DNA from: Candidatus Poseidoniaceae archaeon
GTDB lineage: Archaea > Thermoplasmatota > Poseidoniia > Poseidoniales > Poseidoniaceae
Length of the DNA: 32,000 nt
Assembly (NCBI GenBank): GCA_943789275.1
Contig: CALSTM010000002.1
Coordinates: 270,001 to 302,000 of the forward strand
Reading direction: 5' to 3'
The notes under the pieces were generated by a model. The model was not told the origin of the DNA and searched no databases. It was given only the letters and a program-made list of their open reading frames with translations. The position numbers and the translations under genes were made by a program. Below, piece by piece: positions 9,126 to 27,535 of this stretch. Position 1 is the stretch's first letter. Every line of letters starts with the position of its first letter.

Positions 9126-9593
9126 CTAATTCCGAATATGAACTCGATTTGCACGGTTGACCAAATCGGGAATCAGAGCGATGTCAATAAGCCACAACAA
9201 TCCACAACCACCGAACGTCAAGAAGTAGAAAACCCCCATTCCAATTTGGTTGAGATAAAACCTATGACCGCCCAATGGGCCGAGGAAAAACCACAACAAG
9301 TACGTGACCAGAACATCCTTCTGTGAAGGGTTTTGGAGATACCGTGAACCGTGTTGCTGGTAAAAGTTCGTGAAGGGGGTTTGTGGCGCAGCTTGTTGCT
9401 GCTGATACTGAGGTTGCTGATGATGGAGAGAAGGGTTTGGATTTGCAGCCCTAGGAGGGACTGTTGGCTGCTGTGGTGTCGCCGGTGGCTGCTGAGGCAT
9501 GTGGTAATGATTGTGAATGACATTGCCGGTATGCAAATCTCCAGAGACAACGCTGTCTTTGACATTTGGGCCAGACGCAGGTGTAGGGTCCAT
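9126..9593 (-). CDS. TM2-domain membrane protein with a Q/P-rich N-terminal region
   Basis: The C-terminal 'YLLWFFLGPLGGHRFYLNQIGMGVFYFLTFGGCGLLWLIDIALIPD' is a TM2 domain signature. The N-terminal ~85 aa are low complexity and rich in Pro and Gln. Confidence 0.75.
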   Translation of the reverse strand: MDPTPASGPNVKDSVVSGDLHTGNVIHNHYHMPQQPPATPQQPTVPPRAANPNPSLHHQQPQYQQQQAAPQTPFTNFYQQHGSRYLQNPSQKDVLVTYLLWFFLGPLGGHRFYLNQIGMGVFYFLTFGGCGLLWLIDIALIPDLVNRANRVHIRN

Positions 9594-9620
9594 GTCAATC
9601 AGTTGATGATAAAGTCAATT

Positions 9621-9630
9621 GATAAAAAAG
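9621..9630 (-). promoter_or_regulatory. TATA-like box / oligo-T tract (CTTTTTTATC on the minus strand)
   Basis: It is centred about 32 nt upstream of the TM2 gene ATG (9593), which fits a short-leader archaeal promoter. The same T6 run lies about 20 nt downstream of the tRNA-Ser 3' end and could act as its oligo-T terminator. Confidence 0.3.
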
Positions 9631-9648
9631 CCTTGGATTGGAGTCAGG

Positions 9649-9731
9649 CGCCGAGAGAGAGATTTGAACTCCCGCGTCACAAGGACAGTGGATTTCGAAT
9701 CCACCGCAATACCGGGCTATGCGATCTCGGC
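9649..9731 (-). tRNA. tRNA-Ser(CGA): tRNA-Ser (anticodon CGA), type II with a long variable arm
   Basis: Folded by hand from the minus strand. Acceptor GCCGAGA/TCTCGGC. D stem GCA/TGC. Anticodon stem GTGGA/TCCAC with loop TTCGAAA. 14-nt variable arm TGTCCTTGTGACGC. T arm GGGAG-TTCAAAT-CTCTC. Discriminator G. Total 83 nt, with only CC of the CCA encoded. Confidence 0.85.
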
Positions 9732-9764
9732 CGTGATGCTCGCTCTAGCGCCACCGTCATAAGC

Positions 9765-9986
9765 ATGATGTTACCTCATGGTCTCATGGAGATTCACCTG
9801 CATGGTCGTGACCATGACGTCAAACTCGTTGCTGATTCACAGAAGACGGTGCGTCAAGTGTTGGTAGAGGCGGGAATACTGCCGTCAACGGTTCTCGTCA
9901 GTTTTGAAGGCACTATACTCCCTCATGCAACTGTTCTCTCACAATCAGTGAAATTACTGGTTACAACTGTTTCTTCTGGTGGTTAA
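9765..9986 (+). CDS. Small ubiquitin-like beta-grasp protein (ThiS/MoaD/SAMP-like) ending in Gly-Gly
   Basis: These are the last 66-73 codons of track ORF 9351..9986: 'MEIHLHGRDHDVKLVADSQKTVRQVLVEAGILPSTVLVSFEGTILPHATVLSQSVKLLVTTVSSGG*'. The size, alternating pattern and terminal GG match ThiS/MoaD/SAMP proteins. In-frame ATGs lie at 9765, 9768 and 9786, and the family alignment favours 9786. The upstream part of the track ORF is antisense to the TM2 gene and the tRNA and is not believable. Confidence 0.6.
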   Translation: MMLPHGLMEIHLHGRDHDVKLVADSQKTVRQVLVEAGILPSTVLVSFEGTILPHATVLSQSVKLLVTTVSSGG

Positions 9987-11824
9987 TCCCTTTCAACCCG
10001 TTTCGTGATGTGAATTTTGGAGTTACGAGTGACATTCCCTCTCACTTCAACTGCCCAAGCATCGATTCCGATGTTGGCTACAACGACCGTATCTCCAACT
10101 CCAGCAAGATCGTACTGAGGCCCCCAATCGTTGGCCCATCCTTCAACTTTCATTGCCCCAGTTGCATCAAGAAGCATCAATCCCTTTCGATGCCACTCTT
10201 TCCCATTGCGTCCAACACCTCTCTTTTCGAACTTGTACACAAGTTTCCCCGTCACGTTCCAGCGCGCTCTAAATTCCATGAGGTCAGAGGCTTCCTCATC
10301 TGAAGAAGCATGAACCATACAGGCGTGCGGGTCGACTTTCAATTCGATTTCACCTTTCCAATTCACCGTTGGAATAACGTTGTCCAAACGTACCATGTCA
10401 CCTTTGGCAAGTTCCGTTGGCCATGATGAAGTTCCGTCCTCATGTGAATCGACCAAAAAGACAACTTTAGCAAACTTACTTCCTTGAGAGACGGTCACTT
10501 GAGGTCGACGAGCCTCTTTCATACCCATCACAGTGAAAACTTCTGCCACCAGAGTAATCCGAGGGTCAAGCACACCTATTTTCGCGAGGTCGATTGGAGA
10601 AGAAGTACCTGGCAACTGAATGTCACCGCCTTCGGGCAAGTCATCGTCACCTTTGCCACCTGGACAAACTTCAGCCCAATCACAACGGTCACAGCGCACT
10701 TCGTCGGGCGCCTCAGTAGGAATCCCGCCGGCTTTGAAACCACGAACCGGAGAAGGTGTTGGCGGGCATTCGTCGAGTGAAGGCGTAGTATGACGAAGTT
10801 GTTGCCAAAGTTCTTCCAACTCAGATTCCATCTTTGCCATCTCTTGAGTACTCGGACATTGAATCGTTTTGATAGCGTTGGCTCCGAGATACCAAATTTC
10901 CAAACCGTCGACTTCCTCCTTCTTTCCGTGCGTCACCCACCACAACATAGCATACATTCGTAATTGTTCAACATAGTTTCCAGACCGGTCACCACGCCCA
11001 ATGCTGGCTTTCAAGTCGACAATTGTAATTCGTCCATCCCATCGGTACACAAGGTCATATTCTCCTTGGAACCAATGTTCAGGATGAACAGCATTCATGG
11101 CAAATTTACCCGCATTTGGGTCAACAAACCAGGGACGAGAAATTTCCCAAGCCTCAATGAGTGATACTCCACCTTCCTGGGCCAATGGGTGATTATTCGA
11201 AAGAGAATATCTTCGGGCATCAGGAGCTGGCCATTCGGGGCGTTTCCCTTGTCGCCATTGTTTCAGCATTGGGCCGCCATTGGCGTCAAGACAACGCTGA
11301 ACTTCTTTGAGGTGCATATCCAACCCATTGATGCACATTTCAAGACAATAGTCCGGATTCACAGAATCCCAATCTCCAGCTTTACGCTCGTTCTTCTGCC
11401 ACTCTTCTTTCATGGATTTTAGAGCAGGTTGAAGGTGCGCTTTCAGCCGTTCTATAGCCCATGAGCGCAAATCTTCCATCGACGAAGGCAGCAGGTTGAC
11501 CGGTAAACTCAGCAAGCGTTCCGCAGGCCATGGATCAACACTGGTCCGACTCGGAACGCCTTTTTCATCGAGAGGTATTGCAGAAATGGTGTCAGGGGAA
11601 GCTTTAGCCACCAACAAAGCCGGAGACTCCATGAGCATCCGGCAGAATACCTCTTCAACAGCCCTACCAACGTACAGAACGGGAATCTGTGGCATTTTGA
11701 ACCGACGCACTTTCTCGTAGAACCATAACCGAGGGCATGAGCGATATGCGTTGACTTGGCTTGAGGAGAGACGGTTGTAAGGGCCGACGGAATCGTCTGA
11801 TGGCTGAGCGAGTCGAACGGGCAT
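9983..11824 (-). CDS. Cas4/RecB-family Fe-S PD-(D/E)XK nuclease fused to two C-terminal RPA-like OB folds (paralog A)
   Basis: 613-aa ORF. N-terminal 'SSQVNAYRSCPRLWFY' carries the first cluster Cys. Nuclease core 'GEYDLVYRWDGRITIVDLKAS' gives D...DxK. 'QLRMYAMLWW' is the QxxxY motif. 'CDRCDWAEVC' is exactly CX2CX5C. The OB-like modules read '...GSKFAKVVFLVDSHEDGTSSWPTELAKGDMVRLDNV...GEIELKV' and 'WNVTGKLVYKFEKRGVGRNGKEWHRKGLMLLDATGAMKVEGWAND...GDTVVVANIGIDAWAVEVRGNV'. Confidence 0.7.
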   Translation of the reverse strand: MPVRLAQPSDDSVGPYNRLSSSQVNAYRSCPRLWFYEKVRRFKMPQIPVLYVGRAVEEVFCRMLMESPALLVAKASPDTISAIPLDEKGVPSRTSVDPWPAERLLSLPVNLLPSSMEDLRSWAIERLKAHLQPALKSMKEEWQKNERKAGDWDSVNPDYCLEMCINGLDMHLKEVQRCLDANGGPMLKQWRQGKRPEWPAPDARRYSLSNNHPLAQEGGVSLIEAWEISRPWFVDPNAGKFAMNAVHPEHWFQGEYDLVYRWDGRITIVDLKASIGRGDRSGNYVEQLRMYAMLWWVTHGKKEEVDGLEIWYLGANAIKTIQCPSTQEMAKMESELEELWQQLRHTTPSLDECPPTPSPVRGFKAGGIPTEAPDEVRCDRCDWAEVCPGGKGDDDLPEGGDIQLPGTSSPIDLAKIGVLDPRITLVAEVFTVMGMKEARRPQVTVSQGSKFAKVVFLVDSHEDGTSSWPTELAKGDMVRLDNVIPTVNWKGEIELKVDPHACMVHASSDEEASDLMEFRARWNVTGKLVYKFEKRGVGRNGKEWHRKGLMLLDATGAMKVEGWANDWGPQYDLAGVGDTVVVANIGIDAWAVEVRGNVTRNSKIHITKRVERD

Positions 11825-11872
11825 AGGAGTGAGTGTTTTGTCGAATGTTCTTGAACCCTACTCTCAAAAATA

Positions 11873-13645
11873 TTAATCCTTGACTTGCAATCGAGTTTTC
11901 CTTGAATCGATTCTCAATTGTGGTAAGCCAGCCCTCCAGCCAATTTCAGCAGCCATTAGTTTCAACCGTTGACCGGGACGCAGCGACTCCATTTGCCCGG
12001 TAATACTCGAACCGAAAGATGCCACTTCAACGACAGAATGCCCGTCCCAAAGATGGACATTCATCATCGTCCAAGGCTTTGCATCCAGTCGGACACCTGA
12101 ACGTTTCCTCACGCTCAAAATGATTCCTTCAACATTTGCTCTGGTACGCAGCAATCCAATTCGAGTGGTACGCTCAGACAATTGCTTCGAGGTGTTAGAG
12201 AACTCTTTCTGTGCTTCTGCAAGCGGGAGAATACGAGTTCTTGAATCGACGTACAGTCGAGGAGAGCCCCTCCAAACTCCCGGCAAAGCATCGAGAATGA
12301 CGATGTCTCCGTTTGGTTCATCATGCAACAATGGATAGGCCCCTGGTTCACTTTCCTCTACGGTGATCTGTGCACCTCCTGCAACAAGCATAGCGCCCAG
12401 TACCGGTTCGCCGAAGTGGTTCGGCAATGGACCCCAAGCTCCAGTGAACTTTCCTTGAACACTGACACGTTCTGGAATCGAGGACAACAATTCACTTGGT
12501 GGAGTAAGCGTAATGTCTCGAACTGAAGTAATATTTGAAAGGAGTTCGTCACCGAACCATTTCCCTTCAATGCTCCGAGATAAACTGCACCAGTGGCATC
12601 CTGCAGAACTGCCGTCGCAAGCATCAGAAGGGAGAGCAGGGAGAGTTGCTGGCCCTGAACCCATGTTTTGCATTTGTGTATTGATTTCCAGAAACTCCTT
12701 GCTCATCATTGGATAATCGGCTTTTTCTGGAGCGTCGTACATCACTTTGTGAGGGCCGTTAAGATACCATCCTTCCATCCCATCGACGCATTGTCCATCA
12801 TGAGTTTCATGCCAAAGCCAAGCATAGAATCGAAGTTGATGTTGGAGTGATTCAGCAAACCGTGAACTTGGGTCGCCAGATTTGATGTCAATTAAGCGTA
12901 TTCGGCCGTCCCACCGCAGGACTAAATCCAATTCTCCAGCAGCCCAACTCTCTGGATGAAAAAGGCGTTGAGGTTGATGCACACGAGGGTCTTTCATCCA
13001 TGGGCGAGCAATATCCCAAGCTTCATTCCAAGTCACTGGTGAATCGGGATGCGACCATTGCATGGATTGTTCAGGGTCGGACCATGTACGCAGGGAATAA
13101 TTCCGAACCTTGTCTGGAACCGGGAAGCGAGGTTCGTCACCCCATGCAGGAGAAGGTACGCTATAGGGTTGATTTCCAGAACGGAAAGCCTCTAAATGAG
13201 GGCCACCGTTCATAGCGTAACAAGACTCTACCTCTGCGATGAACAACTCAAGCCCGCAGTGGAGGCGTGATTCAAACGATTCAATTTCGACATCATCCCA
13301 TGAGGTTTCAGGTGCGTACCATAGCCCTTCATCCCACAACTTCTTCCCTTCCAAAAGCGCTTCTTTCGCTGCATTAGGGATGTGAGAAGTAATCCATGAT
13401 TTCAGTTGCTCTAAGGATTCAATACGAACGTTTGGACGCCTCATCATGAGCCCACACAAGGCATCTTCCAATACGATTCCAATCACTTGTGAGGGCCGGA
13501 GTGGCCCTGAAATGCCTACTTTAGAACCAAGGAACCATTGGCGTTTGCATCGCAGGAAAGTAGTGAGGCCACTCGCTGAGATTCGAGAACGTGAACGCCC
13601 TAATGGTCCTCCGAGCGGTGGAATTCCAACAGGCATTTGCTTCAC
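11873..13645 (-). CDS. Cas4/RecB-family PD-(D/E)XK nuclease fused to two C-terminal OB-like folds (paralog B)
   Basis: 590-aa ORF collinear with paralog A. Motifs: 'SASGLTTFLRCKRQWF', 'NGGPHLEAF' (A has 'NGGPMLKQW'), 'GELDLVLRWDGRIRLIDIKSG', 'QLRFYAWLW' and a Cys triad 'CDGSSAGCHWC' (CX6CX2C, different spacing from A). Two OB-like modules follow ('VSVQGKFTG...GDIVILDALPGVWRGSPRLYV' and 'VEGIILSVRKRSGVRLDAKPWTMMNVHLWDGHSVVEVASFG...GQRLKLMAAEIGWRAGLPQLRI'). The start is 3 nt after the ABCE1 stop. Confidence 0.7.
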   Translation of the reverse strand: MKQMPVGIPPLGGPLGRSRSRISASGLTTFLRCKRQWFLGSKVGISGPLRPSQVIGIVLEDALCGLMMRRPNVRIESLEQLKSWITSHIPNAAKEALLEGKKLWDEGLWYAPETSWDDVEIESFESRLHCGLELFIAEVESCYAMNGGPHLEAFRSGNQPYSVPSPAWGDEPRFPVPDKVRNYSLRTWSDPEQSMQWSHPDSPVTWNEAWDIARPWMKDPRVHQPQRLFHPESWAAGELDLVLRWDGRIRLIDIKSGDPSSRFAESLQHQLRFYAWLWHETHDGQCVDGMEGWYLNGPHKVMYDAPEKADYPMMSKEFLEINTQMQNMGSGPATLPALPSDACDGSSAGCHWCSLSRSIEGKWFGDELLSNITSVRDITLTPPSELLSSIPERVSVQGKFTGAWGPLPNHFGEPVLGAMLVAGGAQITVEESEPGAYPLLHDEPNGDIVILDALPGVWRGSPRLYVDSRTRILPLAEAQKEFSNTSKQLSERTTRIGLLRTRANVEGIILSVRKRSGVRLDAKPWTMMNVHLWDGHSVVEVASFGSSITGQMESLRPGQRLKLMAAEIGWRAGLPQLRIDSRKTRLQVKD

Positions 13646-13648
13646 CCC

Positions 13649-15427
13649 TCAATGGTCGAACGAATAGTAATCGCCAATACCACGCTGTTCTCTGTCTTTC
13701 CGACTTTCCATTTTGTTGATACGCGGGCGTTTTGAATCGTGGTCACGGCGGAAGGTTACGTTAACACCCTCAAGGAAACGATTCATTCCCTCACGAAGCT
13801 TGAACGGACCTTCGGCTTTACCGTGAACGCCACCCTCACCTTCAAAGACAAGTAAAGAATCACTTACAATGTCAATGAAGTAGACATCGTGGTCAATTAC
13901 GAACGCCGATTTCTCGTTGGCTTCCATTGTTCTACGAATCGCTTTAGCAGCCTCCATTCGTGCGTTTGCATCCAGGTGAGCAGACGGTTCATCGAGCAAG
14001 TACAGGTCGGCTTCTCGACCGAGACAAATAGCAATCGAGACCGCTTGGCGTTCACCACCTGACAATTTTTTGACACGCTTCGGTAGTAGTTGGTCAACAC
14101 CTAATGCTCGAATAACGTTGACGTTGTACTCACCTACGCGCCATTTCGGACCAATTTCACTGTCGAGCCACAGTTGTACACTGCAGTCCATATCGACATC
14201 GATATGTTGAGGTTTGTACGAGATGGTCGCGTTTTCAGTCACCCATCCTTCATCGTAACCGTGTTCACCAGCCAGGACTTTGATCATGGTTGATTTACCA
14301 GTACCGTTCGGCCCGACGACACCAACAACTTCTGAGCGGTGAACTGCACCTTCTCCAGTTGTTAATTGGAAATCTCCCAGTTTTTTGGTTAGCCCTCCCC
14401 AAGAAACTACTTCGGAACCTATTTCGGAAACTCGGTCACTGTGGTTAAGGAATTTGATGGGTTTATCTCGAATTCGAACGTTTTGTTCTGGAAGGAAACC
14501 ATCGAGATAGGTGTTGATCGCTTGCCGCGTGGTTCTTGCTGGAGTGAAAATCCCGAAGGCCCCTTTCTTACCGTAGACAATGTGTACTAAATCTGCCAGA
14601 ACATCCAGTACTGCAAGGTCGTGTTCGATGACAATGACTCTCTTTGTTTCAGCAAGTTTCTGGATAATTCGAACAATTCGCATCCGCTCGTGAATGTCGA
14701 GATACGAAGAAGGTTCGTCGAAGAAATACACGTCGACGTCTCGTAAAAGGGTAGCACAAATTGCCATTCGTTGTAATTCACCACCGGACAGTTGCTGAAC
14801 TGTTCGTTCAAGAAGATGGTCGATTCCCAAATCACGTGTTAATTGTTCAAACATGTTTCGTTCATCAACACGAGAGAGTAAATCACGCACAGTACCCTTG
14901 ATTTTCTTAGGAAGGCGGTCAACATTTTGGGGCTTGAGGGCAACACGAACATCACCGTTTTTGACGGCAACGAAGAAGTCACGTAATTCACCTCGAGGAA
15001 GTGATTCAATGACGTCATCCCAGTCAGCATCCTTATTGAGCCAATCACCAAGGTTCGGAATCATTCGTCCTGAAAGAGCATTGATTGCTGTCGACTTGCC
15101 CATTCCGTTTGGCCCGAGTATACCGACTACACTTTCTTTTGAAGGGGTAGGAAGTCGGAACAACCGAAAACCATTCATCGAATATCGGTGAATCATATCC
15201 GTTTCCAACTCACTTGGGAGCTGCTCGATGATGAGGGCGTCGTGAGGGCATTTGTTGATGCAGATACCACACCCGATACAGAGGCTTTCAGAAATGTGAG
15301 GCTTTCCAGTTTTCTCATCGAGAATTATACATTCTTGACCGTTGCGAACCGGTGGACAAAAGGCGTGACACTCGTCGTTGCACTTCTTCGGTTGACAATT
15401 GTCTTCTTTGAGGACTGCGACTCTCAT
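13649..15427 (-). CDS. ABCE1: ABCE1 / RNase L inhibitor-type ribosome recycling ATPase
   Basis: 592-aa ORF. N-terminal double 4Fe-4S domain ('CQPKKCNDECHAFCP', 'CIGCGICINKCP'). Two ABC cassettes with Walker A 'GPNGMGKST' and 'GPNGTGKST' and signatures 'LSGGELQR' and 'LSGGERQ'. Confidence 0.95.
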   Translation of the reverse strand: MRVAVLKEDNCQPKKCNDECHAFCPPVRNGQECIILDEKTGKPHISESLCIGCGICINKCPHDALIIEQLPSELETDMIHRYSMNGFRLFRLPTPSKESVVGILGPNGMGKSTAINALSGRMIPNLGDWLNKDADWDDVIESLPRGELRDFFVAVKNGDVRVALKPQNVDRLPKKIKGTVRDLLSRVDERNMFEQLTRDLGIDHLLERTVQQLSGGELQRMAICATLLRDVDVYFFDEPSSYLDIHERMRIVRIIQKLAETKRVIVIEHDLAVLDVLADLVHIVYGKKGAFGIFTPARTTRQAINTYLDGFLPEQNVRIRDKPIKFLNHSDRVSEIGSEVVSWGGLTKKLGDFQLTTGEGAVHRSEVVGVVGPNGTGKSTMIKVLAGEHGYDEGWVTENATISYKPQHIDVDMDCSVQLWLDSEIGPKWRVGEYNVNVIRALGVDQLLPKRVKKLSGGERQAVSIAICLGREADLYLLDEPSAHLDANARMEAAKAIRRTMEANEKSAFVIDHDVYFIDIVSDSLLVFEGEGGVHGKAEGPFKLREGMNRFLEGVNVTFRRDHDSKRPRINKMESRKDREQRGIGDYYSFDH

Positions 15428-17475: not shown

Positions 17476-17583
17476 TGTTCCATCTTATCGAAGAAACAGC
17501 ACTTTGTTCTAGACAACGCGAGAACCTTCATGTGCTCTCGGCAACGACAGGAAACTCCAGCGAGAGCAAGGAGTGTATCAAGT

Positions 17584-20238
17584 ATGGCCAAAAGGGGGAT
17601 GATGGACCAATTCATGGACATCAAGGAACAACACCCCGACACCATTCTGTTCTTCAGAATGGGAGACTTTTACGAATTGTTCCATGAAGATGCTGTTGTT
17701 GGTTCTGAAGTCTTGGGACTCGCCCTCACCTCCCGGGACAAAAAAGCAGCAAAACCCATTCAAATGGCCGGTTTCCCTTGGCACGCATTGGAAGACAACC
17801 TGCGAGTCATGCTCAAAGCTGGTCACAAAGTTACCGTGGCTGAGCAGGAGCAGGAACTTCGGGAAGGAGCAAAACTTCTGGAGCGGATTGTCACTCGAGT
17901 CTACACGCCAGGTAGCCTTTATGAAGAATCATTACTCGGTACCGATGAACGTTCTCTGTTGGTTTCTGTGTCCCTTAGTAAAACTGCACTTGGACTCGGG
18001 ATATTCGATGCTTCAACTGGACAAGCCTGGGCTTCAAATCTTGAAGGTGACGACCGGTTCGCTCGAGCTTTAGATGAGATTCTGCGTTGGAGACCAACCG
18101 AAATTGTCGTCTCTCCTAAAGATGCTGAAGACGATGCACTGTGCGCCCTATTCTCGCACTTAGACGGCGTTCTAATCAGCCAACATCGTGCCAGCGAAAC
18201 CAAACGCCGGAACCGTTTGGAAAAAGTACTGAAGGTGGCCGACCTGGGTCATTTGGATTTAGACGATGCACCCTTGGCTCTCGCCGCTGCCGGACTTGCA
18301 GCAGACTATCTAGCGACCATGCACATTGCTGACGAGGTACCCATTCGTGATATCGAGGTGATCGATGAGGCTGGACACTTGGTTCTCGATCAGACTACGC
18401 TTCGTAACCTTGAATTAACCTCGACTTTAGCGGGTGAATACGAAGGAAGCCTACTTGCATCACTGAATGCGTGCAGGAGCGCAATGGGTCGGCGTCTGTT
18501 GAAAACTTGGATTCTTCGACCTCTGTGCAGTATTGAGGCTATCCATGCTCGGCACGAAGCCGTTGGTTCACTCTCCCGCTCGGCTCGGCGTCTGGACGCC
18601 ATTCGAGATGCTTTGCGTGGGTTGAGAGACATGGAACGTCTTGCGACACAATTGGCTTACAACAGGTCAAATGGACGTGATTTGATGGCGGTTTCCGATG
18701 CATTGGAACGCATGCCGGCCATCATTAACTTGTGCCAAGAAACAGATAACCCACTTCTTACCCACCTCTCGAATAACCTTGATTGCTTATCCGATATGGC
18801 AGAGGATATCCGCAGAACACTCGTTGATGAACCACCTTTGAGTATTCGAGATGGAGGTTTGATTCGTACTGGATTGAATCAAAATATTGACCGATTGCGA
18901 GAAACTTCCGCTTCGGGGCACTCGTGGTTCCGGGAACTGGAATCAAAACTGCGCTTAGAACTTGAGATTCCATCGCTCAAAGTTCGTATGAATCGCCAAA
19001 TTGGATGGTTCATTGAAGTAACAAAGACCAACGAAAACAAGGTTCCTGAAGAATGGCGTCGGAAGCAACAGATGACAAACGGTTCCCGTTACATTACCAC
19101 TGAACTCGCAGAGAGAGACGACCTTTTGCTTACAGCAGATACCAAAGTGAAAGAACTCGAATACCGAGAATACACAGCATTGAGAGAGCGATGTAAAACC
19201 CATGCCCAAGCTTTAGCCAACATCGCTGGAAGGGTCGCTGCCATTGATGTCCTCCAATGCTTCGCCTCCATTGCTCGAACACGCTCCTGGACTCGCCCTG
19301 AACTCACTGAAGGACATCATCTCAAAGCGGACGGTGCCCGTCACCCAACACTCGAAACCCAGTCGGGATTCGTCCCCAATGATATCCATCTCCAAAAGAA
19401 AAGGAATTTCCTCTTGATTACCGGGCCGAACATGGGCGGTAAATCGACCTACCTCCGTACCACTGCACTGATTACCATCCTCGCTCAATGTGGGAGTTTT
19501 GTCCCTGCTAAAAAAGCCAAAATTGGATTGGTCGATCGCATATTTACCCGCGTTGGTGCCAGCGATGACTTACGCCGAGGGCGTTCTACCTTCATGATGG
19601 AAATGATTGAAGTCGCCCATATTCTTCGCCGAGCAACCTCTCAATCTCTCGTTCTGTTGGATGAAATCGGCAGGGGTACATCCACTTTTGACGGTTTATC
19701 TATTGCCTGGTCGGTCACTGAAGATATCTGTCGCCGAATTGGGTCACGAACTTTGTTTGCGACACATTACCACCAACTCATCGGACTGGAGGGTGAAGTC
19801 GATGGTTTGGTGAACGTCCATGTCCAGGTTGCCCAATCGGACGGAGAATTGCGTTTCATGCATACCGTTGCAGACGGTCCTTGTGACGACTCATACGGAG
19901 TGCAGGTTGCTGCTTTGGCTGGACTTCCCAGAGCAGTGGTCGAACGAGCATCCGACCTTCTCGCCTTCCTTGAACAACAAGCAGATGGCGCAAAGGCTGG
20001 CGAATCCGGCACCCCTTCTTCTCGAGCACACGGTCAATCGAGCCTCATGGGCTATTTTGCAGCTGCCGCAATGAACCAATCGAACCAAACTTCGTCCTCA
20101 CAACCAAGCCTCTTGCCTGAGCAAAAGAATACACTGGAATATCTGAGGCAAATCGATGCTGATGAACTCTCTCCAAAACAAGCGCATGATGCCCTCTATA
20201 GACTAAAGAAACTCTTAGGAAGTGAAGAACGTGACTGA
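17584..20238 (+). CDS. mutS: DNA mismatch repair protein MutS (bacterial MutS1 type)
   Basis: N-terminal mismatch-recognition motif 'MMDQFMDIKEQHPDTILFFRMGDFYELF'. Walker A 'GPNMGGKSTYLR', 'STFMMEM', 'LLDEIGRGTSTFDG' and 'FATHYHQL'. I chose the ATG at 17584, while the track ORF starts at 17530. Confidence 0.95.
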   Translation: MAKRGMMDQFMDIKEQHPDTILFFRMGDFYELFHEDAVVGSEVLGLALTSRDKKAAKPIQMAGFPWHALEDNLRVMLKAGHKVTVAEQEQELREGAKLLERIVTRVYTPGSLYEESLLGTDERSLLVSVSLSKTALGLGIFDASTGQAWASNLEGDDRFARALDEILRWRPTEIVVSPKDAEDDALCALFSHLDGVLISQHRASETKRRNRLEKVLKVADLGHLDLDDAPLALAAAGLAADYLATMHIADEVPIRDIEVIDEAGHLVLDQTTLRNLELTSTLAGEYEGSLLASLNACRSAMGRRLLKTWILRPLCSIEAIHARHEAVGSLSRSARRLDAIRDALRGLRDMERLATQLAYNRSNGRDLMAVSDALERMPAIINLCQETDNPLLTHLSNNLDCLSDMAEDIRRTLVDEPPLSIRDGGLIRTGLNQNIDRLRETSASGHSWFRELESKLRLELEIPSLKVRMNRQIGWFIEVTKTNENKVPEEWRRKQQMTNGSRYITTELAERDDLLLTADTKVKELEYREYTALRERCKTHAQALANIAGRVAAIDVLQCFASIARTRSWTRPELTEGHHLKADGARHPTLETQSGFVPNDIHLQKKRNFLLITGPNMGGKSTYLRTTALITILAQCGSFVPAKKAKIGLVDRIFTRVGASDDLRRGRSTFMMEMIEVAHILRRATSQSLVLLDEIGRGTSTFDGLSIAWSVTEDICRRIGSRTLFATHYHQLIGLEGEVDGLVNVHVQVAQSDGELRFMHTVADGPCDDSYGVQVAALAGLPRAVVERASDLLAFLEQQADGAKAGESGTPSSRAHGQSSLMGYFAAAAMNQSNQTSSSQPSLLPEQKNTLEYLRQIDADELSPKQAHDALYRLKKLLGSEERD

Positions 20239-22237
20239 ACCAAATCGCATCATTCAACTGGATGAATCCACCATTGGCCATATTGCCGCAGGAGAAGTCG
20301 TTGAACGACCTGCCCAAGTGGTCAAGGAATTACTTGAAAACAGCCTTGACGCAAGTGCTGAACGCCTTGTCATCACAGTAGAGCGTGGCGGTTTTGATTT
20401 AATTCGAGTCGAAGATGATGGAAGTGGAATCGATGAAAACGATTTGCGACTTGCCCTCGACCGCCATGCAACTTCCAAATTAAAGAAGGCAGAAGACCTC
20501 AATTCAATTCACACTCTCGGGTTTCGTGGCGAGGCTTTAGCCAGCATCGGTATGGTATCTCACCTCTCCATTTCAAGTCGGCCTGCTGGAAAGGATGGAA
20601 AATCAATCACGATGAAAAATGGCGAAAAAGGAACTATCGAGCCGTTTGGAATGCAACATGGAACCCGTATTGATGTCGAACATTTATTCCGAAATACGCC
20701 GGCTCGACTTGCCTTTCAACGCCGGCCAGCAACGGAGAACTCTCGGATTGTGGACGTGGTGGTTGCTCATGCAATGGCCCATCAGTTGACCGGTTTTCGT
20801 TTGGTTATCGACGAGAGGGTCATGCTCGATATCCCTTCGGCTGATTCAATGACGGACCGATTGTTTGACCTCTTGGGCGGTCAAGTTGAATCGATGTTGG
20901 AAATGACGTCTCCAGACACCGATAATGAAGCACCTGGAAAGGAGAGATGGACCGGTTGGATCAGTACTCCGGATATTACCCGTGGCAAAGGTGACGATAT
21001 CCATATTTTGATTAACGACAGACCGGTTGCTGCCGGCCCGTTTTTACAAGCAATCCGACGAGGGTACAAAACCCGACTGATGCAAGGAAGACACCCTATT
21101 GCCGTCTTATCGCTCACATTGCCTCCAGATGAAGTCGATGTCAACGTCCACCCGACCAAACGTGAAGTTCGTTTGCGACACTCGTGGAGGGTTCTTGAAC
21201 GACTGGAACGGGCGATTGCTCACACTTTGGAATCTGTCCCTACCCAACCGGATGCTGCTGGAGGCATTCCTGCCCTTCAAGGCCTTGGAGTACAGAAAGT
21301 AAAATCCATTCAAGAACACCTTGCACCCCCAACCCAACAGCAAAACCCTCTCGATGCTGCTGCCGGTTCATCCACACTTGTGCTACCGAAAGAGAACAAA
21401 ACAGAGACCCCACCAGCTTGGGCCATTGCTGCGGGAGCACAACTCAATCTCCACGGCAGTCAAGCGACTGAACCAGAAGTTGAAGCCAAAAAACGACCGC
21501 AATCAACCTCGCCTGCTGCTCAAGATACATTACCGGGTTTGGATGAAAAACCAACTGCACCTGCCCTCTCTCACGCTGAAAGAACACTTCACCGGCATGC
21601 AGGTTGTGGGCACCAAGTCTCACCAAATGAAGAGGCTCCACTTGAAGGAATCATCAATGAACTTCCAGAGATGGAACCGCTTGCCCAATTTGCCGACTCC
21701 TACATTCTGGTTCAGGCTGAAGAGGAATTGCTCCTGATCGACCAACATGCTTTGCATGAACGCATTCGATACGAGCGCCTACGTAATGACGAATCGCTTT
21801 GGGAAAGTCAGACCAAAATTCAACCGGTGGAATTGAACCTTGATGCACGTCAATCCGTACGTGTTGCTGCAGCAGTTGACACGCTTTCTCAGGTTGGCTT
21901 TTCACTTCGAGAGGGTGAGAAAGGTTGGATGGTCGATGCTGCTCCGCAATTACTTGAAGGTGAGGAACTCGTACCTTTCCTTCTCGATTTACTCCAAGAT
22001 ACGGCTGAAGACGGCGCTCCGCTTGAAACGGTTGACAGAAGAAAAGACCACTTGGCATTCCTAAATGCCTGCAGAGGTGCAGTCAAAGCCAACGAAAAAC
22101 TGACATTACCTGAGATGAGAAGGTTACTTGACGACATGCGTAGAATTCCGAACCCTTGGGCATGCGTTCACGGAAGACCAACAGCACTACGCTTGCCACT
22201 AAACTCACTCGACCACCACTTTGGTCGTCACGGTTAA
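20222..22237 (+). CDS. mutL: DNA mismatch repair protein MutL (endonuclease-proficient type)
   Basis: GHKL ATPase N-terminus 'IAAGEVVERPAQVVKELLENSLDA', 'DDGSGI' and 'GFRGEALASI'. C-terminal endonuclease motifs 'DQHALHERIRYE' (DQHAx2Ex4E), 'ACRGAVKAN' and 'CVHGRPT'. The GTG start at 20222 (or 20231) overlaps the end of mutS. Confidence 0.95.
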   Translation: MKNVTEPNRIIQLDESTIGHIAAGEVVERPAQVVKELLENSLDASAERLVITVERGGFDLIRVEDDGSGIDENDLRLALDRHATSKLKKAEDLNSIHTLGFRGEALASIGMVSHLSISSRPAGKDGKSITMKNGEKGTIEPFGMQHGTRIDVEHLFRNTPARLAFQRRPATENSRIVDVVVAHAMAHQLTGFRLVIDERVMLDIPSADSMTDRLFDLLGGQVESMLEMTSPDTDNEAPGKERWTGWISTPDITRGKGDDIHILINDRPVAAGPFLQAIRRGYKTRLMQGRHPIAVLSLTLPPDEVDVNVHPTKREVRLRHSWRVLERLERAIAHTLESVPTQPDAAGGIPALQGLGVQKVKSIQEHLAPPTQQQNPLDAAAGSSTLVLPKENKTETPPAWAIAAGAQLNLHGSQATEPEVEAKKRPQSTSPAAQDTLPGLDEKPTAPALSHAERTLHRHAGCGHQVSPNEEAPLEGIINELPEMEPLAQFADSYILVQAEEELLLIDQHALHERIRYERLRNDESLWESQTKIQPVELNLDARQSVRVAAAVDTLSQVGFSLREGEKGWMVDAAPQLLEGEELVPFLLDLLQDTAEDGAPLETVDRRKDHLAFLNACRGAVKANEKLTLPEMRRLLDDMRRIPNPWACVHGRPTALRLPLNSLDHHFGRHG

Positions 22238-25240: not shown

Positions 25241-25314
25241 GGTACCTCTGTGTCATCGATAGGTCTTGAACCAACCGTTTCAAATTCAGTAAAGAGAGAC
25301 GACTTCGCAATGAA

Positions 25315-27453: not shown

Positions 27454-27535
27454 ATATCATCCTACAGGGGTGTCCTTCTTAACCCGTAGTCTCCGCCCTT
27501 GTAATGTGAGGAGTCATCCTCGCCGAGGTGATTTT

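What the first reader, a model, noticed from the sequence alone, without database searches (positions are those of the whole stretch)
9983..15427. Tandem paralogous Fe-S Cas4/RecB-type nucleases, each fused to two RPA-like OB folds, coupled directly behind ABCE1
Two adjacent minus-strand genes of about 600 codons (11873-13645 and 9983-11824) are clear paralogs with the same architecture.
- Seen in sequence: each has an N-terminal Cys-containing helix ('AYRSCPRLWFY' / 'TFLRCKRQWF'). Each has a complete PD-(D/E)XK core ('GEYDLVYRWDGRITIVDLKAS' / 'GELDLVLRWDGRIRLIDIKSG') and a QxxxY motif ('QLRMYAML' / 'QLRFYAWL'). Each has a C-terminal Cys triad. In A this is the canonical Cas4/AddB spacing CX2CX5C ('CDRCDWAEVC'). 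In B it is rearranged to CX6CX2C ('CDGSSAGCHWC').
- Seen in sequence: two OB-like modules follow in each protein, with the RPA pattern (for example 'GLMLLDATGAMKVEGWAND...GDTVVVANIGIDAW').
- Seen in sequence: gene B starts 3 nt after the ABCE1 stop, and gene A follows 48 nt later. There is no helicase, cas gene or CRISPR array in the window.
- Established knowledge: this nuclease module occurs in Cas4, AddB and eukaryotic Dna2, and Dna2 also combines it with an OB fold and a helicase.
- Inference: the pair may form a heterodimeric, helicase-less enzyme that processes ssDNA or DNA ends, comparable to a minimal Dna2 or AddAB nuclease. B may be a structurally diverged partner.
I cannot name a characterised family with this nuclease plus 2xOB architecture. 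The tight linkage to an essential translation gene is also unusual.
Basis: partly seen in the sequence, partly recalled or inferred. Interest (0 to 1): 0.75.

Follow-up and report, generated by a model that had tools for sequence, protein, structure and literature searches.

The report
Paired iron-sulfur nucleases with built-in RPA
Marine Group II archaea (Poseidoniales), among the most abundant archaea in the surface ocean, all carry two neighbouring sister genes for an uncharacterised DNA-cutting enzyme that fuses a Cas4/Dna2-type iron-sulfur nuclease to two RPA-like single-strand-DNA-binding modules, and one gene is always placed directly behind the ribosome-recycling gene ABCE1.

Summary
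Genes A (9983-11824, minus strand) and B (11873-13636, minus strand) are paralogs (25% identity, E=1e-39). Each has a PD-(D/E)XK nuclease domain above Pfam's threshold. Each keeps an invariant D...D-x-K/Q...Y core and 1+3 cysteines of the Cas4/AddB/Dna2 "iron-staple" type. Each ends in a tandem OB module that matches RPA70 DBD-A/B by fold.

Both paralogs look catalytically intact. B is not a degenerate partner: its OB modules are more conserved than A's. Its unusual cysteine spacing occurs only in the Poseidoniaceae-type B proteins.

The duplication predates the order. The ABCE1-B-A order holds in all 80 related loci examined where the contig reaches that far, in a Thalassarchaeaceae (MGIIb) locus and in a high-GC Poseidoniales lineage, even where the flanks differ and ABCE1 itself has been replaced.

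B follows ABCE1 after 8-52 nt (one outlier, L079) with a Shine-Dalgarno-like site. A has its own conserved BRE/TATA-like box and is probably leaderless.

The only outside relatives are single-copy, single-OB bacterial proteins. No characterised family or paper matches.

My best reading is a helicase-less nuclease pair for ssDNA ends or flaps that works like Dna2 plus RPA fused into one chain. Heterodimer formation and a functional tie to ABCE1 remain untested. I rate it a new variant of a known kind, of moderate to high interest.

The parts
13649..15427 (-). ABCE1/RLI ribosome-recycling ATPase, the gene immediately upstream of B
   Evidence: NCBIfam PRK13409 E=2e-246 (819 bits, cut-off 469). 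Pfam Fer4_RLI plus two ABC_tran domains.
13637..13648 (-). 12-nt ABCE1-B spacer, TGA-GGGGTGAAGCAA-ATG, with a Shine-Dalgarno-like GGGGTGA
   Evidence: Sequence read. Across related loci the spacer is 8-52 nt (one outlier, L079, at 725 nt). 47 of 58 distinct upstream sequences have an SD-like pentamer at -16..-4. There is a G-rich information peak at -12..-6 and no TATA-like peak.
11873..13636 (-). Gene B (587 aa from the ATG; the longest ORF starts at GTG 13645): nuclease plus two OB folds
   Evidence: Most listed homologs are 571-591 aa and start MPV/MPF. PDDEXK_1 E=3.6e-13. AF2 pLDDT 86.0.
12572..13588 (-). B nuclease domain (aa 17-355), including N-terminal Cys30 (13547-13549), DLVLRWDGRIRLIDIK (12881-12928) and CDGSSAGCHWC (12587-12619)
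   Evidence: Invariant C30, E235, D237, D250, K252, Q267, Y271, C340, C347 and C350 in 31 sequences. Coordinates verified by translation.
12221..12475 (-). B OB fold 1 (aa 388-472), with the highly conserved WGPLPNHFGEPVLGA and ALPGVWRG-PRLY motifs
   Evidence: Beta-strands 391-471 in the model. Foldseek hits to tandem OB proteins. 34% invariant columns.
11876..12148 (-). B OB fold 2 (aa 497-587)
   Evidence: The combined A+B family profile matches P. abyssi RPA over this region. 36% invariant columns.
11846..11858 (-). BRE/TATA-like box GGGTTCAAGAACA in the 48-nt B-A spacer, at -34..-22 from the A start codon
   Evidence: Information-content peak AGnnTTnAAAAGG at -34..-22 and T/C at -1 in 75 distinct upstream sequences, with no purine-rich SD. 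The same box sits at the same distance before the pilin and polyprenyl-synthase genes.
9983..11824 (-). Gene A (613 aa): nuclease plus two OB folds
   Evidence: PDDEXK_1 E=1.5e-15. AF2 pLDDT 82.6, pTM 0.79. 530 homologs found.
10640..11776 (-). A nuclease domain (aa 17-395), including Cys30 (11735-11737), DLVYRWDGRITIVDLK (11009-11056) and CDRCDWAEVC (10664-10693)
   Evidence: Invariant C30, E255, D257, D270, K272, Q287, Y291, C378, C381 and C387 in 31 sequences. A nuclease-only profile hits Cas4 4r5q (E=8e-4) with three collinear motif blocks. Coordinates verified.
10307..10567 (-). A OB fold 1 (aa 420-506)
   Evidence: Beta-strands 423-505. Foldseek. This is the OB that aligns with the single OB-like C-terminal module of the bacterial relative (hhalign 99.7%).
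9995..10267 (-). A OB fold 2 (aa 520-610), RPA-like
   Evidence: Sequence match to P. abyssi RPA E=6.6e-4. PF01336 is above its cut-off in homologs P0258 and P0440.

Best explanation
**What it is**

A and B are an ancient paralogous pair, specific to Poseidoniales, of metal-dependent nucleases for ssDNA ends or flaps.

**Shown**
- Each protein has a Cas4/AddB/Dna2-type PD-(D/E)XK domain.
- In each, one N-terminal and three C-terminal cysteines are placed to hold a 4Fe-4S "iron staple".
- Each ends in a tandem OB module of the RPA70 DBD-A/B type.
- Both keep all catalytic residues.

**Inferred mechanism**
- In Dna2 and AddB the iron staple supports a crossover loop. That loop turns the active-site groove into a tunnel that only a free ssDNA end can thread (PMC4716839).
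- Here the fused OB pair would bind the ssDNA with fixed polarity and feed or position the end at that tunnel.
- The protein would then work like the Dna2-RPA ensemble fused into one chain, without a helicase motor.
- The two paralogs have subfunctionalised. They probably handle opposite polarities or strands, either as a heterodimer that arose from a homomeric single-gene ancestor or as two separate enzymes.
- The likely role is housekeeping replication or recombination: flap trimming, end resection or fork processing.

**Gene expression**
- B is transcribed and translated as the distal cistron of the ABCE1 message.
- A is made from its own leaderless promoter.
- The ABCE1 link most likely reflects constitutive co-expression rather than a shared pathway.
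For: **Protein features**
- Pfam PDDEXK_1 is above its cut-off for both proteins.
- The D...D-x-K, Q...Y and 1+3 Cys positions are invariant in each family and across both.
- The nuclease profile hits Cas4 4r5q at E=8e-4, with collinear Cys-helix, DLV..K and CxxCxxxxxC blocks, and Dna2 faintly.
- Confident AF2 models have top fold hits to RPA70 DBD-A/B bound to ssDNA (4gop, 1jmc) and to archaeal RPA.
- There is a sequence match to RPA, and PF01336 is above its cut-off in homologs.

**Distribution**
- The pair is a core gene pair: 367 species genomes carry a relative of A.
- A and B are adjacent in all 80 fetched loci where the contig allows, in a Thalassarchaeaceae (MGIIb) locus and in a high-GC Poseidoniales lineage.
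- Every full-length archaeal representative sorts cleanly as A-like or B-like.
- The single-copy bacterial relative has one OB-like C-terminal module.
- No viral relatives were found, and PADLOC matches are only weak.

**Transcription and translation signals**
- B has a Shine-Dalgarno-like site in its short spacer.
- A has a BRE/TATA-like box and an initiator-like pyrimidine at -1.

**Reference mechanism**
- The iron-staple tunnel and control of cleavage polarity by RPA are described in PMC4716839.
Against: - No activity, cofactor or interaction was measured.
- A heterodimer is inferred only from strict co-occurrence.
- No helicase, recombinase or replication gene is conserved next to the pair. 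MutS/MutL lie close only in the Poseidoniaceae-type loci.
- The bacterial relatives have uninformative neighbours.
- The only partner conserved across the order is a translation factor, which a DNA role does not explain.
- I could not check whether Poseidoniales lack HerA-NurA, Dna2 or other enzymes that this pair might replace.
Confidence: 0.55

Rival explanations
1. RNA rather than DNA is the substrate. The pair, or at least B, works with ABCE1 in ribosome rescue or recycling as an mRNA-surveillance nuclease. The OB folds would bind RNA emerging from stalled or split ribosomes.
For: - ABCE1-B adjacency with an SD-coupled junction of 8-52 nt is the only linkage conserved in all Poseidoniales lineages examined. 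It holds even where both flanks differ.
- It also holds where ABCE1 itself has been replaced by an allele about 69% identical.
- PF01336-type OB folds also bind RNA, and some PD-(D/E)XK enzymes cut RNA (established knowledge).
Against: - All characterised iron-staple nucleases (Cas4, AddB, Dna2, Exo5) act on DNA (established knowledge; PMC4716839).
- The best fold and sequence matches of the OB pair are ssDNA-binding RPA domains.
- A has its own promoter.
- The bacterial relatives exist without ABCE1.
- Archaeal operons often mix unrelated housekeeping genes (established knowledge).
Confidence: 0.1
2. A and B are two independent enzymes, not a heterodimer. After duplication each took a different substrate or partner, and they stay adjacent only by inheritance.
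For: - The transcription signals are separate: B uses SD coupling to ABCE1, and A has its own leaderless promoter.
- Constraint on the OB modules is very different: B 34-36% invariant columns, A 8-18%.
- B has a conserved but disordered N-terminal peptide that A lacks.
- Both keep complete active sites.
Against: - Both genes are retained, in the same order, in every lineage examined over a divergence reaching about 25% identity between the paralogs.
- Paired nuclease subunits are the rule in AddAB and AdnAB (established knowledge).
Confidence: 0.25
3. The pair is a solo Cas4-like defence or mobile-element nuclease.
For: Weak matches to Cas4 and DruK models in PADLOC (E from 1e-6 to 1e-5) and to phage exonuclease PHROGs.
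Against: - The locus is fixed in a conserved housekeeping neighbourhood in every genome examined.
- There is no CRISPR array or cas gene.
- No relatives were found in 2.9 million viral contigs.
- TIGR00372 scores 23 bits against a cut-off of 65.
Confidence: 0.03
4. The proteins are non-catalytic alternative ssDNA-binding proteins (RPA paralogs) that carry a dead nuclease-like domain.
For: The tandem OB module resembles RPA70 DBD-A/B.
Against: - The catalytic D/D-x-K and Q...Y residues and all four cluster cysteines are invariant in both families and in the bacterial relatives.
- The nuclease core is the most conserved part of A.
Confidence: 0.04

Closest known systems
Dna2 nuclease-helicase acting with RPA (eukaryotes)
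   Same: - It has a RecB/AddB-like PD-(D/E)XK nuclease domain whose N- and C-terminal extensions are stapled by a 4Fe-4S cluster.
- It has an OB fold in the same polypeptide.
- It acts on ssDNA ends, with RPA OB domains setting polarity (PMC4716839).
- The nuclease profile gives a faint sequence match to Dna2 residues 302-410 (E=0.8).
   Different: - There is no SF1B helicase domain: Pfam finds only PDDEXK_1.
- Two RPA-type OB folds are fused C-terminally. Dna2 has one OB fold, which I recall as N-terminal, and recruits RPA in trans.
- It occurs as two paralogs.
Cas4 (CRISPR-associated, e.g. Pcal_0546, PDB 4r5q)
   Same: The N-terminal Cys helix, the D...E/D-x-K core, Q...Y and the C-terminal CX2CX5C are collinear. 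NCBIfam and PADLOC Cas4 models give partial hits.
   Different: - It is about three times longer, with a helical insertion of roughly 110 aa and two OB folds.
- It scores far below the Cas4 model cut-off (23 against 65 bits).
- It has no cas or CRISPR context.
- It is a core housekeeping gene.
AddB / AdnAB nuclease subunits (bacterial end resection)
   Same: These have an iron-staple nuclease domain, and two related nuclease-bearing subunits work as a pair on the two strands of a DNA end (established knowledge; PMC4716839 for the AddB-Dna2 similarity).
   Different: A and B have no helicase or helicase-like domain in either subunit, and they have OB folds instead. Pairing of A and B has not been shown.
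RPA70 DBD-A/B and archaeal RPA (P. abyssi RPA, PDB 8aaj)
   Same: The tandem OB arrangement is the best fold match, E about 1e-8. OB2 matches by sequence at E=6.6e-4.
   Different: It is fused to a nuclease. No zinc-finger DBD-C or trimerisation core was detected, so it is not an RPA subunit.
Single-copy bacterial PDDEXK_1 proteins of 429-477 aa (one source labels a member 'Planctomycetes bacterium')
   Same: These are true homologs through the nuclease domain, part of the helical insertion and OB1 (hhalign 99.7%, E=7e-26). The D/D-x-K and CX2CX5C positions are invariant.
   Different: - They have one OB-like module, not two (inferred from alignment to A's OB1, not modelled), and are single-copy.
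- They lack the Cys61/Cys178 pair.
- They have no ABCE1 neighbour.
- They are also uncharacterised.

Membership tests
PD-(D/E)XK nuclease superfamily (Pfam PDDEXK_1) | Profile match above the curated cut-off | tested here: met
   A scores 58.2 bits and B 50.5 bits against a cut-off of 22. The bacterial relative matches model positions 1-247 of 247.
PD-(D/E)XK nuclease superfamily (Pfam PDDEXK_1) | Catalytic D ... (D/E)-x-K residues conserved | tested here: met
   A D257, D270 and K272 and B D237, D250 and K252 are invariant in 31 sequences each, across both families, and in distant relatives.
Iron-staple nucleases (Cas4/AddB/Dna2/Exo5 type) | One N-terminal Cys plus three C-terminal Cys positioned to bind 4Fe-4S | tested here: met
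   A C30 with C378, C381 and C387, and B C30 with C340, C347 and C350, are invariant. All A-like proteins and the non-Poseidoniaceae-type B-like proteins have CX2CX5C.
Iron-staple nucleases (Cas4/AddB/Dna2/Exo5 type) | Actual 4Fe-4S cluster and a threaded ssDNA tunnel | not testable with these tools
   This needs UV-vis or EPR spectroscopy and an experimental structure.
Cas4 (CRISPR-associated) | Equivalog model TIGR00372 at or above its cut-off | tested here: not met
   A scores 23.2 bits and B 12.8 bits against a cut-off of 65, and only partial regions match.
Cas4 (CRISPR-associated) | Location in a cas operon or next to a CRISPR array | tested here: not met
   No array was found. The neighbours are ABCE1, L10e, tRNA-Ser and TM2, and the same holds in 80 loci.
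Dna2 | SF1B helicase domain C-terminal to the nuclease | tested here: not met
   No helicase or AAA family appears in the Pfam scan at E<=1. The C-terminal halves are OB folds.
AddB / AdnAB | N-terminal UvrD-like (in)active helicase domain and a helicase-nuclease partner | tested here: not met
   No such domain is present in A, B or the window.
RPA / replication factor A | OB folds of the RPA type | tested here: met
   Foldseek E about 1e-8 to RPA70 DBD-A/B and P. abyssi RPA. Sequence profile E=6.6e-4. PF01336 scores 30.7 and 27.9 bits against a cut-off of 27 in homologs.
RPA / replication factor A | Full-length equivalog match (NCBIfam replication factor A or SSB models) | tested here: not met
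   PRK07218 scores 14.6 bits against 447. PRK06386 scores 12.3 bits against 556.
Exo5 / NucS / other named archaeal nucleases | Match to the family's Pfam or NCBIfam model | tested here: not met
   At E<=1 the only nuclease models returned are PDDEXK_1 (Pfam) and a sub-threshold cas4 match (NCBIfam).

The most novel reading that the evidence does not exclude
B, and perhaps A, is a nuclease that works with ABCE1 on stalled or recycled ribosomes. That would make it an archaeal mRNA-surveillance (no-go-decay-type) endonuclease built from an iron-staple PD-(D/E)XK domain and RNA-binding OB folds. It would explain why B stays translationally coupled behind ABCE1 across the whole order, even after ABCE1 itself was replaced.
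Probability: 0.08. Interest if true: 0.9.

Novelty: new variant of a known kind. Interest (0 to 1): 0.6.

Why it matters
**Why the organisms matter**

[quoted passage not shown] Their DNA metabolism is known only from annotation. This pair is a core, order-wide gene pair that current annotation labels only as "PD-(D/E)XK nuclease family protein" or "hypothetical".

**What it would show if the model is right**
- A third way to build an ssDNA-end-processing machine. Dna2 fuses nuclease to helicase and recruits RPA. AddAB uses two helicase-nuclease subunits. Here an RPA-like tandem OB would be fused directly to an iron-staple nuclease, with no motor.
- A natural, compact system for studying how OB-fold polarity directs a threaded nuclease.
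- A clean example of duplication and subfunctionalisation from a single-gene bacterial-type ancestor.

**The ABCE1 link**

The strict ABCE1-B coupling is either a useful marker of constitutive co-expression or a lead to an unknown link between ribosome recycling and nucleic-acid cleavage.

Tried and rejected
**Searches that found nothing or could not run**
- phmmer of A against PDB sequences found nothing.
- The viral-contig scan found no relatives.
- Six literature searches found no paper on this family or on nuclease content in Poseidoniales. One further search failed on syntax.
- The archaeal replication phylogenomics paper mentions Marine Group II only for gyrase, Cdc6 and assembly incompleteness.
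- Gene neighbourhoods of the bacterial relatives showed only local synteny (cytochrome c, HEAT repeats, a small ferredoxin, M28 peptidase) and no repair genes.

**Ideas rejected**
- B as an inactive partner: its catalytic and cysteine positions are invariant and its OB modules are more conserved than A's.
- A Cas4 or defence role.
- MutS/MutL linkage as a functional clue: it is absent from the MGIIb and high-GC loci.
- The GTG at 13645 as B's start: most listed homologs start MPV/MPF, and an SD-like site precedes that ATG.

**Not attempted**
- A+B multimer modelling.
- A presence/absence survey of HerA-NurA, Mre11-Rad50 and Dna2 in Poseidoniales.

Full report

Yes. The ORF list shows three consecutive minus-strand genes: 13649-15427 (592 aa), 11873-13645 (590 aa from a GTG) and 9983-11824 (613 aa).

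- The first is ABCE1/RLI (NCBIfam PRK13409, E=2e-246; Pfam Fer4_RLI plus two ABC_tran domains).
- The other two, which I call B and A, align over their full length at 25% identity, E=1e-39.
- Both pass Pfam PDDEXK_1: 58.2 and 50.5 bits against a cut-off of 22.
I verified their coordinates by translation.

**2. Domain anatomy**

I aligned 31 sequences per family, with 52-89% identity to A and 54-91% to B.
- Invariant in A: C30, E255, D257, D270, K272, Q287, Y291, C378, C381, C387.
- Invariant in B, numbered from the ATG: C30, E235, D237, D250, K252, Q267, Y271, C340, C347, C350.
- The catalytic and Q...Y positions and C30 stay invariant when both families are aligned together and when distant relatives are added.

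A profile of the nuclease halves hits the Cas4 structure 4r5q at E=8e-4. The match has three collinear blocks: the Cys helix, GxxDLv...K, and CxxCxxxxxC. The same profile hits the Dna2 nuclease domain faintly, at E=0.8.

AlphaFold models are confident: A has pLDDT 82.6 and pTM 0.79, B has pLDDT 86.0 and pTM 0.84. After residue 420 in A and 388 in B, each shows two all-beta modules.
- Foldseek against the PDB puts RPA70 DBD-A/B (4gop_C, 1jmc), HIN-200 tandem OB domains and P. abyssi RPA (8aaj) at the top. E-values run from about 1e-8 to 1e-6 over 190-296 aligned columns.
- By sequence, the combined family profile matches P. abyssi RPA over OB2 at E=6.6e-4.
- Pfam PF01336 passes its cut-off in homologs P0440 and P0258.

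So the architecture is an iron-staple PD-(D/E)XK nuclease plus a tandem RPA-like OB module.

**3.

(a) The start of B.
- Most listed B homologs are 571-591 aa and begin MPV/MPF.
- In the window the sequence after the ABCE1 stop reads TGA-GGGGTGAAGCAA-ATG.
- B therefore starts at 13636, 12 nt after ABCE1, behind a Shine-Dalgarno-like GGGGTGA.

(b) B is not the degenerate partner.
- Its nuclease core is as conserved as A's: 38% invariant columns against 35%.
- Its OB1 and OB2 are far more conserved than A's: 34% and 36% against 8% and 18%.

(c) The odd cysteine spacing of B (CX6CX2C here, CX4-6CX2C in its close relatives) is confined to the Poseidoniaceae-type B proteins.
- B-like proteins of Thalassarchaeaceae and deeper Poseidoniales lineages have the canonical CX2CX5C.
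- So do all A-like proteins and the bacterial relatives.

**4. Who has it?**

The hits that carry a name are Candidatus Poseidoniaceae, Poseidoniales or Thalassarchaeaceae, i.e. Marine Group II archaea.
- A scan of one genome per species found a relative of A in 367 genomes. The 80 best were fetched.
- An exhaustive HMMER search of 1.84 billion cluster representatives with a combined A+B profile found only 525 proteins at E<=1e-3. About 30 of them are full-length clusters.
- Each full-length archaeal representative scores unambiguously as A-like or B-like. The duplication therefore predates the radiation of the order.

The only outgroup is a set of proteins of 429-477 aa. One source labels a member a Planctomycetes MAG, and another lies on a 4.3-Mb contig.
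- They align with A from the N-terminus through OB1 (hhalign 99.7%, E=7e-26).
- They are single-copy and have one OB-like C-terminal module. That is inferred from the alignment to A's OB1, not modelled.
- Their neighbours carry no repair or translation signal.

No relative exists in 2.9 million viral contigs.

**5. Is the ABCE1 linkage real?**

In all 80 loci the gene order is the same wherever the contig reaches that far. A's identity to the window ranges from 51 to 93%. The order is:

MutS <- hypothetical <- | L10e -> ABCE1 -> B -> A | <- PAC2 <- Nop10 <- eIF2alpha

That alone could be plain synteny. Three further observations argue otherwise.
- The ABCE1-B-A trio persists in a Thalassarchaeaceae (MGIIb) locus, L082, where both flanks differ: squalene/phytoene synthase genes lie upstream and PolB downstream.
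- It persists on a 3.0-Mb high-GC Poseidoniales contig, L081, whose upstream flank differs.
- ABCE1 occurs as two allele classes only about 69% identical among otherwise close relatives, and B still follows it.

Junction analysis separates the two genes.
- The ABCE1-B spacer is 8-52 nt, apart from one outlier (L079, 725 nt). An SD-like pentamer is present in 47 of 58 distinct sequences. There is a G-rich information peak at -12..-6 and no TATA-like peak. B is therefore most likely a translationally coupled distal cistron of the ABCE1 message.
- The B-A spacer has a sharp conserved element, AGnnTTnAAAAGG, at -34..-22. It has a pyrimidine at -1 and no SD, in 75 distinct sequences from all lineages.
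- This is the geometry expected of an archaeal BRE/TATA promoter driving a leaderless mRNA (established knowledge).
- The same box sits at the same distance before the pilin and polyprenyl-synthase genes of the window.
- A therefore very probably has its own transcript. This is an inference from sequence; no transcript data were available.

**6. How it most likely works**

Shown: both proteins combine an intact PD-(D/E)XK site, four cluster-type cysteines and a tandem RPA-like OB module.

Established knowledge: in Dna2 and AddB the Fe-S cluster staples the N- and C-terminal extensions together. These extensions hold a crossover loop that turns the catalytic groove into a tunnel, and only a free ssDNA end can thread it. 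RPA controls Dna2's cleavage polarity (PMC4716839).

Inference:
- The fused OB pair binds ssDNA directionally and presents its end to the nuclease tunnel. That gives Dna2-plus-RPA logic in a single chain without a motor.
- The single-gene bacterial homolog suggests a homomeric or monomeric ancestor.
- The archaeal lineage added an RPA-type OB2 and duplicated the gene.
- The asymmetric conservation of the OB modules indicates subfunctionalisation. So does B's invariant but disordered N-terminal peptide MPVGxPPLGGPLGRSRSR.
- The two may form a heterodimer that handles both polarities or strands, as AddAB and AdnAB do. Equally, they may be separate enzymes.

I put about 0.85 on the biochemical class (an Fe-S ssDNA-binding nuclease). 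I put 0.55 on the full statement, a DNA end/flap processing pair whose ABCE1 link reflects co-expression.

**7. Rivals**

- RNA/ribosome role with ABCE1, about 0.1. It is supported only by the conserved linkage. Against it stand the DNA specificity of every characterised relative, the RPA-like OB matches, A's separate promoter, and the bacterial homologs that lack ABCE1.
- Independent enzymes rather than a heterodimer, about 0.25. This is a variant of the main model.
- A defence or mobile nuclease, about 0.03, and a non-catalytic RPA paralog, about 0.04. The fixed housekeeping locus, the lack of viral relatives and the invariant catalytic residues count against these.

**8. Comparison with known families**

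The pair works most like Dna2 with RPA, or like the AddB/AdnAB nuclease modules.

It is a member of the PD-(D/E)XK superfamily and, by sequence criteria, of the iron-staple subgroup.

It fails membership tests for the following:
- Cas4: the model cut-off, the cas context and the size.
- Dna2 and AddB: there is no helicase domain.
- RPA: the full-length models do not match.
- Exo5 and NucS: there is no model match.

No paper in the searchable library describes the family.

**9. Verdict**

The feature is real, conserved across the order and uncharacterised. It is a new variant of a known kind: a known nuclease module in a domain combination not found in any library or paper searched here, and in a paralog-pair arrangement. 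Its linkage to ABCE1 is robust but unexplained. Interest is 0.6.

Noticed in passing
window 9786-9986 (+): A 66-aa ORF ending in Gly-Gly lies convergent with gene A and overlaps its stop codon by 4 nt. It is ThiS/MoaD/SAMP-like: E=0.063 to Pfam ThiS here, while its counterpart in L081 (10027-10227) passes the ThiS cut-off (24.4 against 22.5 bits) and weakly matches SAMP2. The mechanical ORF list hides it inside a spurious 211-aa ORF (9351-9986).
   Followed up: partly
window 9647-9731 (-): tRNA-Ser(CGA) lies about 250 nt downstream of A on the same strand and is followed by a T-run. It holds this position in 10 of 13 related loci checked. In L032 and L081 it lies just downstream of A on the opposite strand, and in L082 it is about 5.7 kb further downstream.
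   Followed up: partly
window 13649-15427 (-) and loci L004-L082: ABCE1 occurs as two allele classes only about 69% identical to each other. One class is in the window, L004, L007 and L019; the other is in L005, L008, L011, L014, L018 and L029. Genomes carrying different classes have L10e, B and A that are similarly close to the window (L10e 92-96%, B 76-79%, A 77-80%). The second class is nearer to the MGIIb ABCE1 (67% against 59%), and L035 and L073 look intermediate. This suggests replacement or recombination of an essential translation gene within Poseidoniales.
   Followed up: partly
window 13583-13636 (-), B residues 1-18: The N-terminal peptide MPVGxPPLGGPLGRSRSR of B is almost invariant in 31 sequences, yet it is predicted to be disordered (residues 1-13 have pLDDT below 50). 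It may be a short linear interaction motif. A lacks it.
   Followed up: no
A residues C61 and C178 (window 11642-11644 and 11291-11293); B C61 and C139: A pair of cysteines in two long helices of the insertion domain is invariant in both paralog families. It is absent from the bacterial single-OB relative. A also has an invariant C160, H130 and H171. This could be a second metal site or a disulfide.
   Followed up: no
window 11846-11858, about 25264-25272 and about 27477-27485 (all -): A shared GGTT(C/A)AAGA-type box sits about 24-33 nt upstream of the start codons of gene A, the archaeal pilin gene (start 25240) and the polyprenyl-synthase gene (start 27453). This is consistent with a BRE/TATA promoter driving leaderless mRNAs in this organism.
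   Followed up: partly
L076 (NZEQ01000046.1): This contig is labelled 'Verrucomicrobiales bacterium' but carries the complete archaeal L10e-ABCE1-B-A-PAC2-Nop10-eIF2alpha block, nearly identical to the Poseidonia locus L075. It is probably a misbinned contig.
   Followed up: no
window 17530-22237 (+): Bacterial-type mutS (all five MutS domains) and mutL overlap by 17 nt. They are transcribed divergently from the L10e-ABCE1-B-A block, 2 kb away. This proximity holds in the Poseidoniaceae-type loci only, not in MGIIb or the high-GC lineage.
   Followed up: partly
L082 6223-7990 and 13130-15363: In the MGIIb contig, ABCE1 is called as 508 aa plus an 83-aa ORF, and PolB as two adjacent genes (371 and 386 aa). 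These may be frameshifts, assembly errors or split genes.
   Followed up: no
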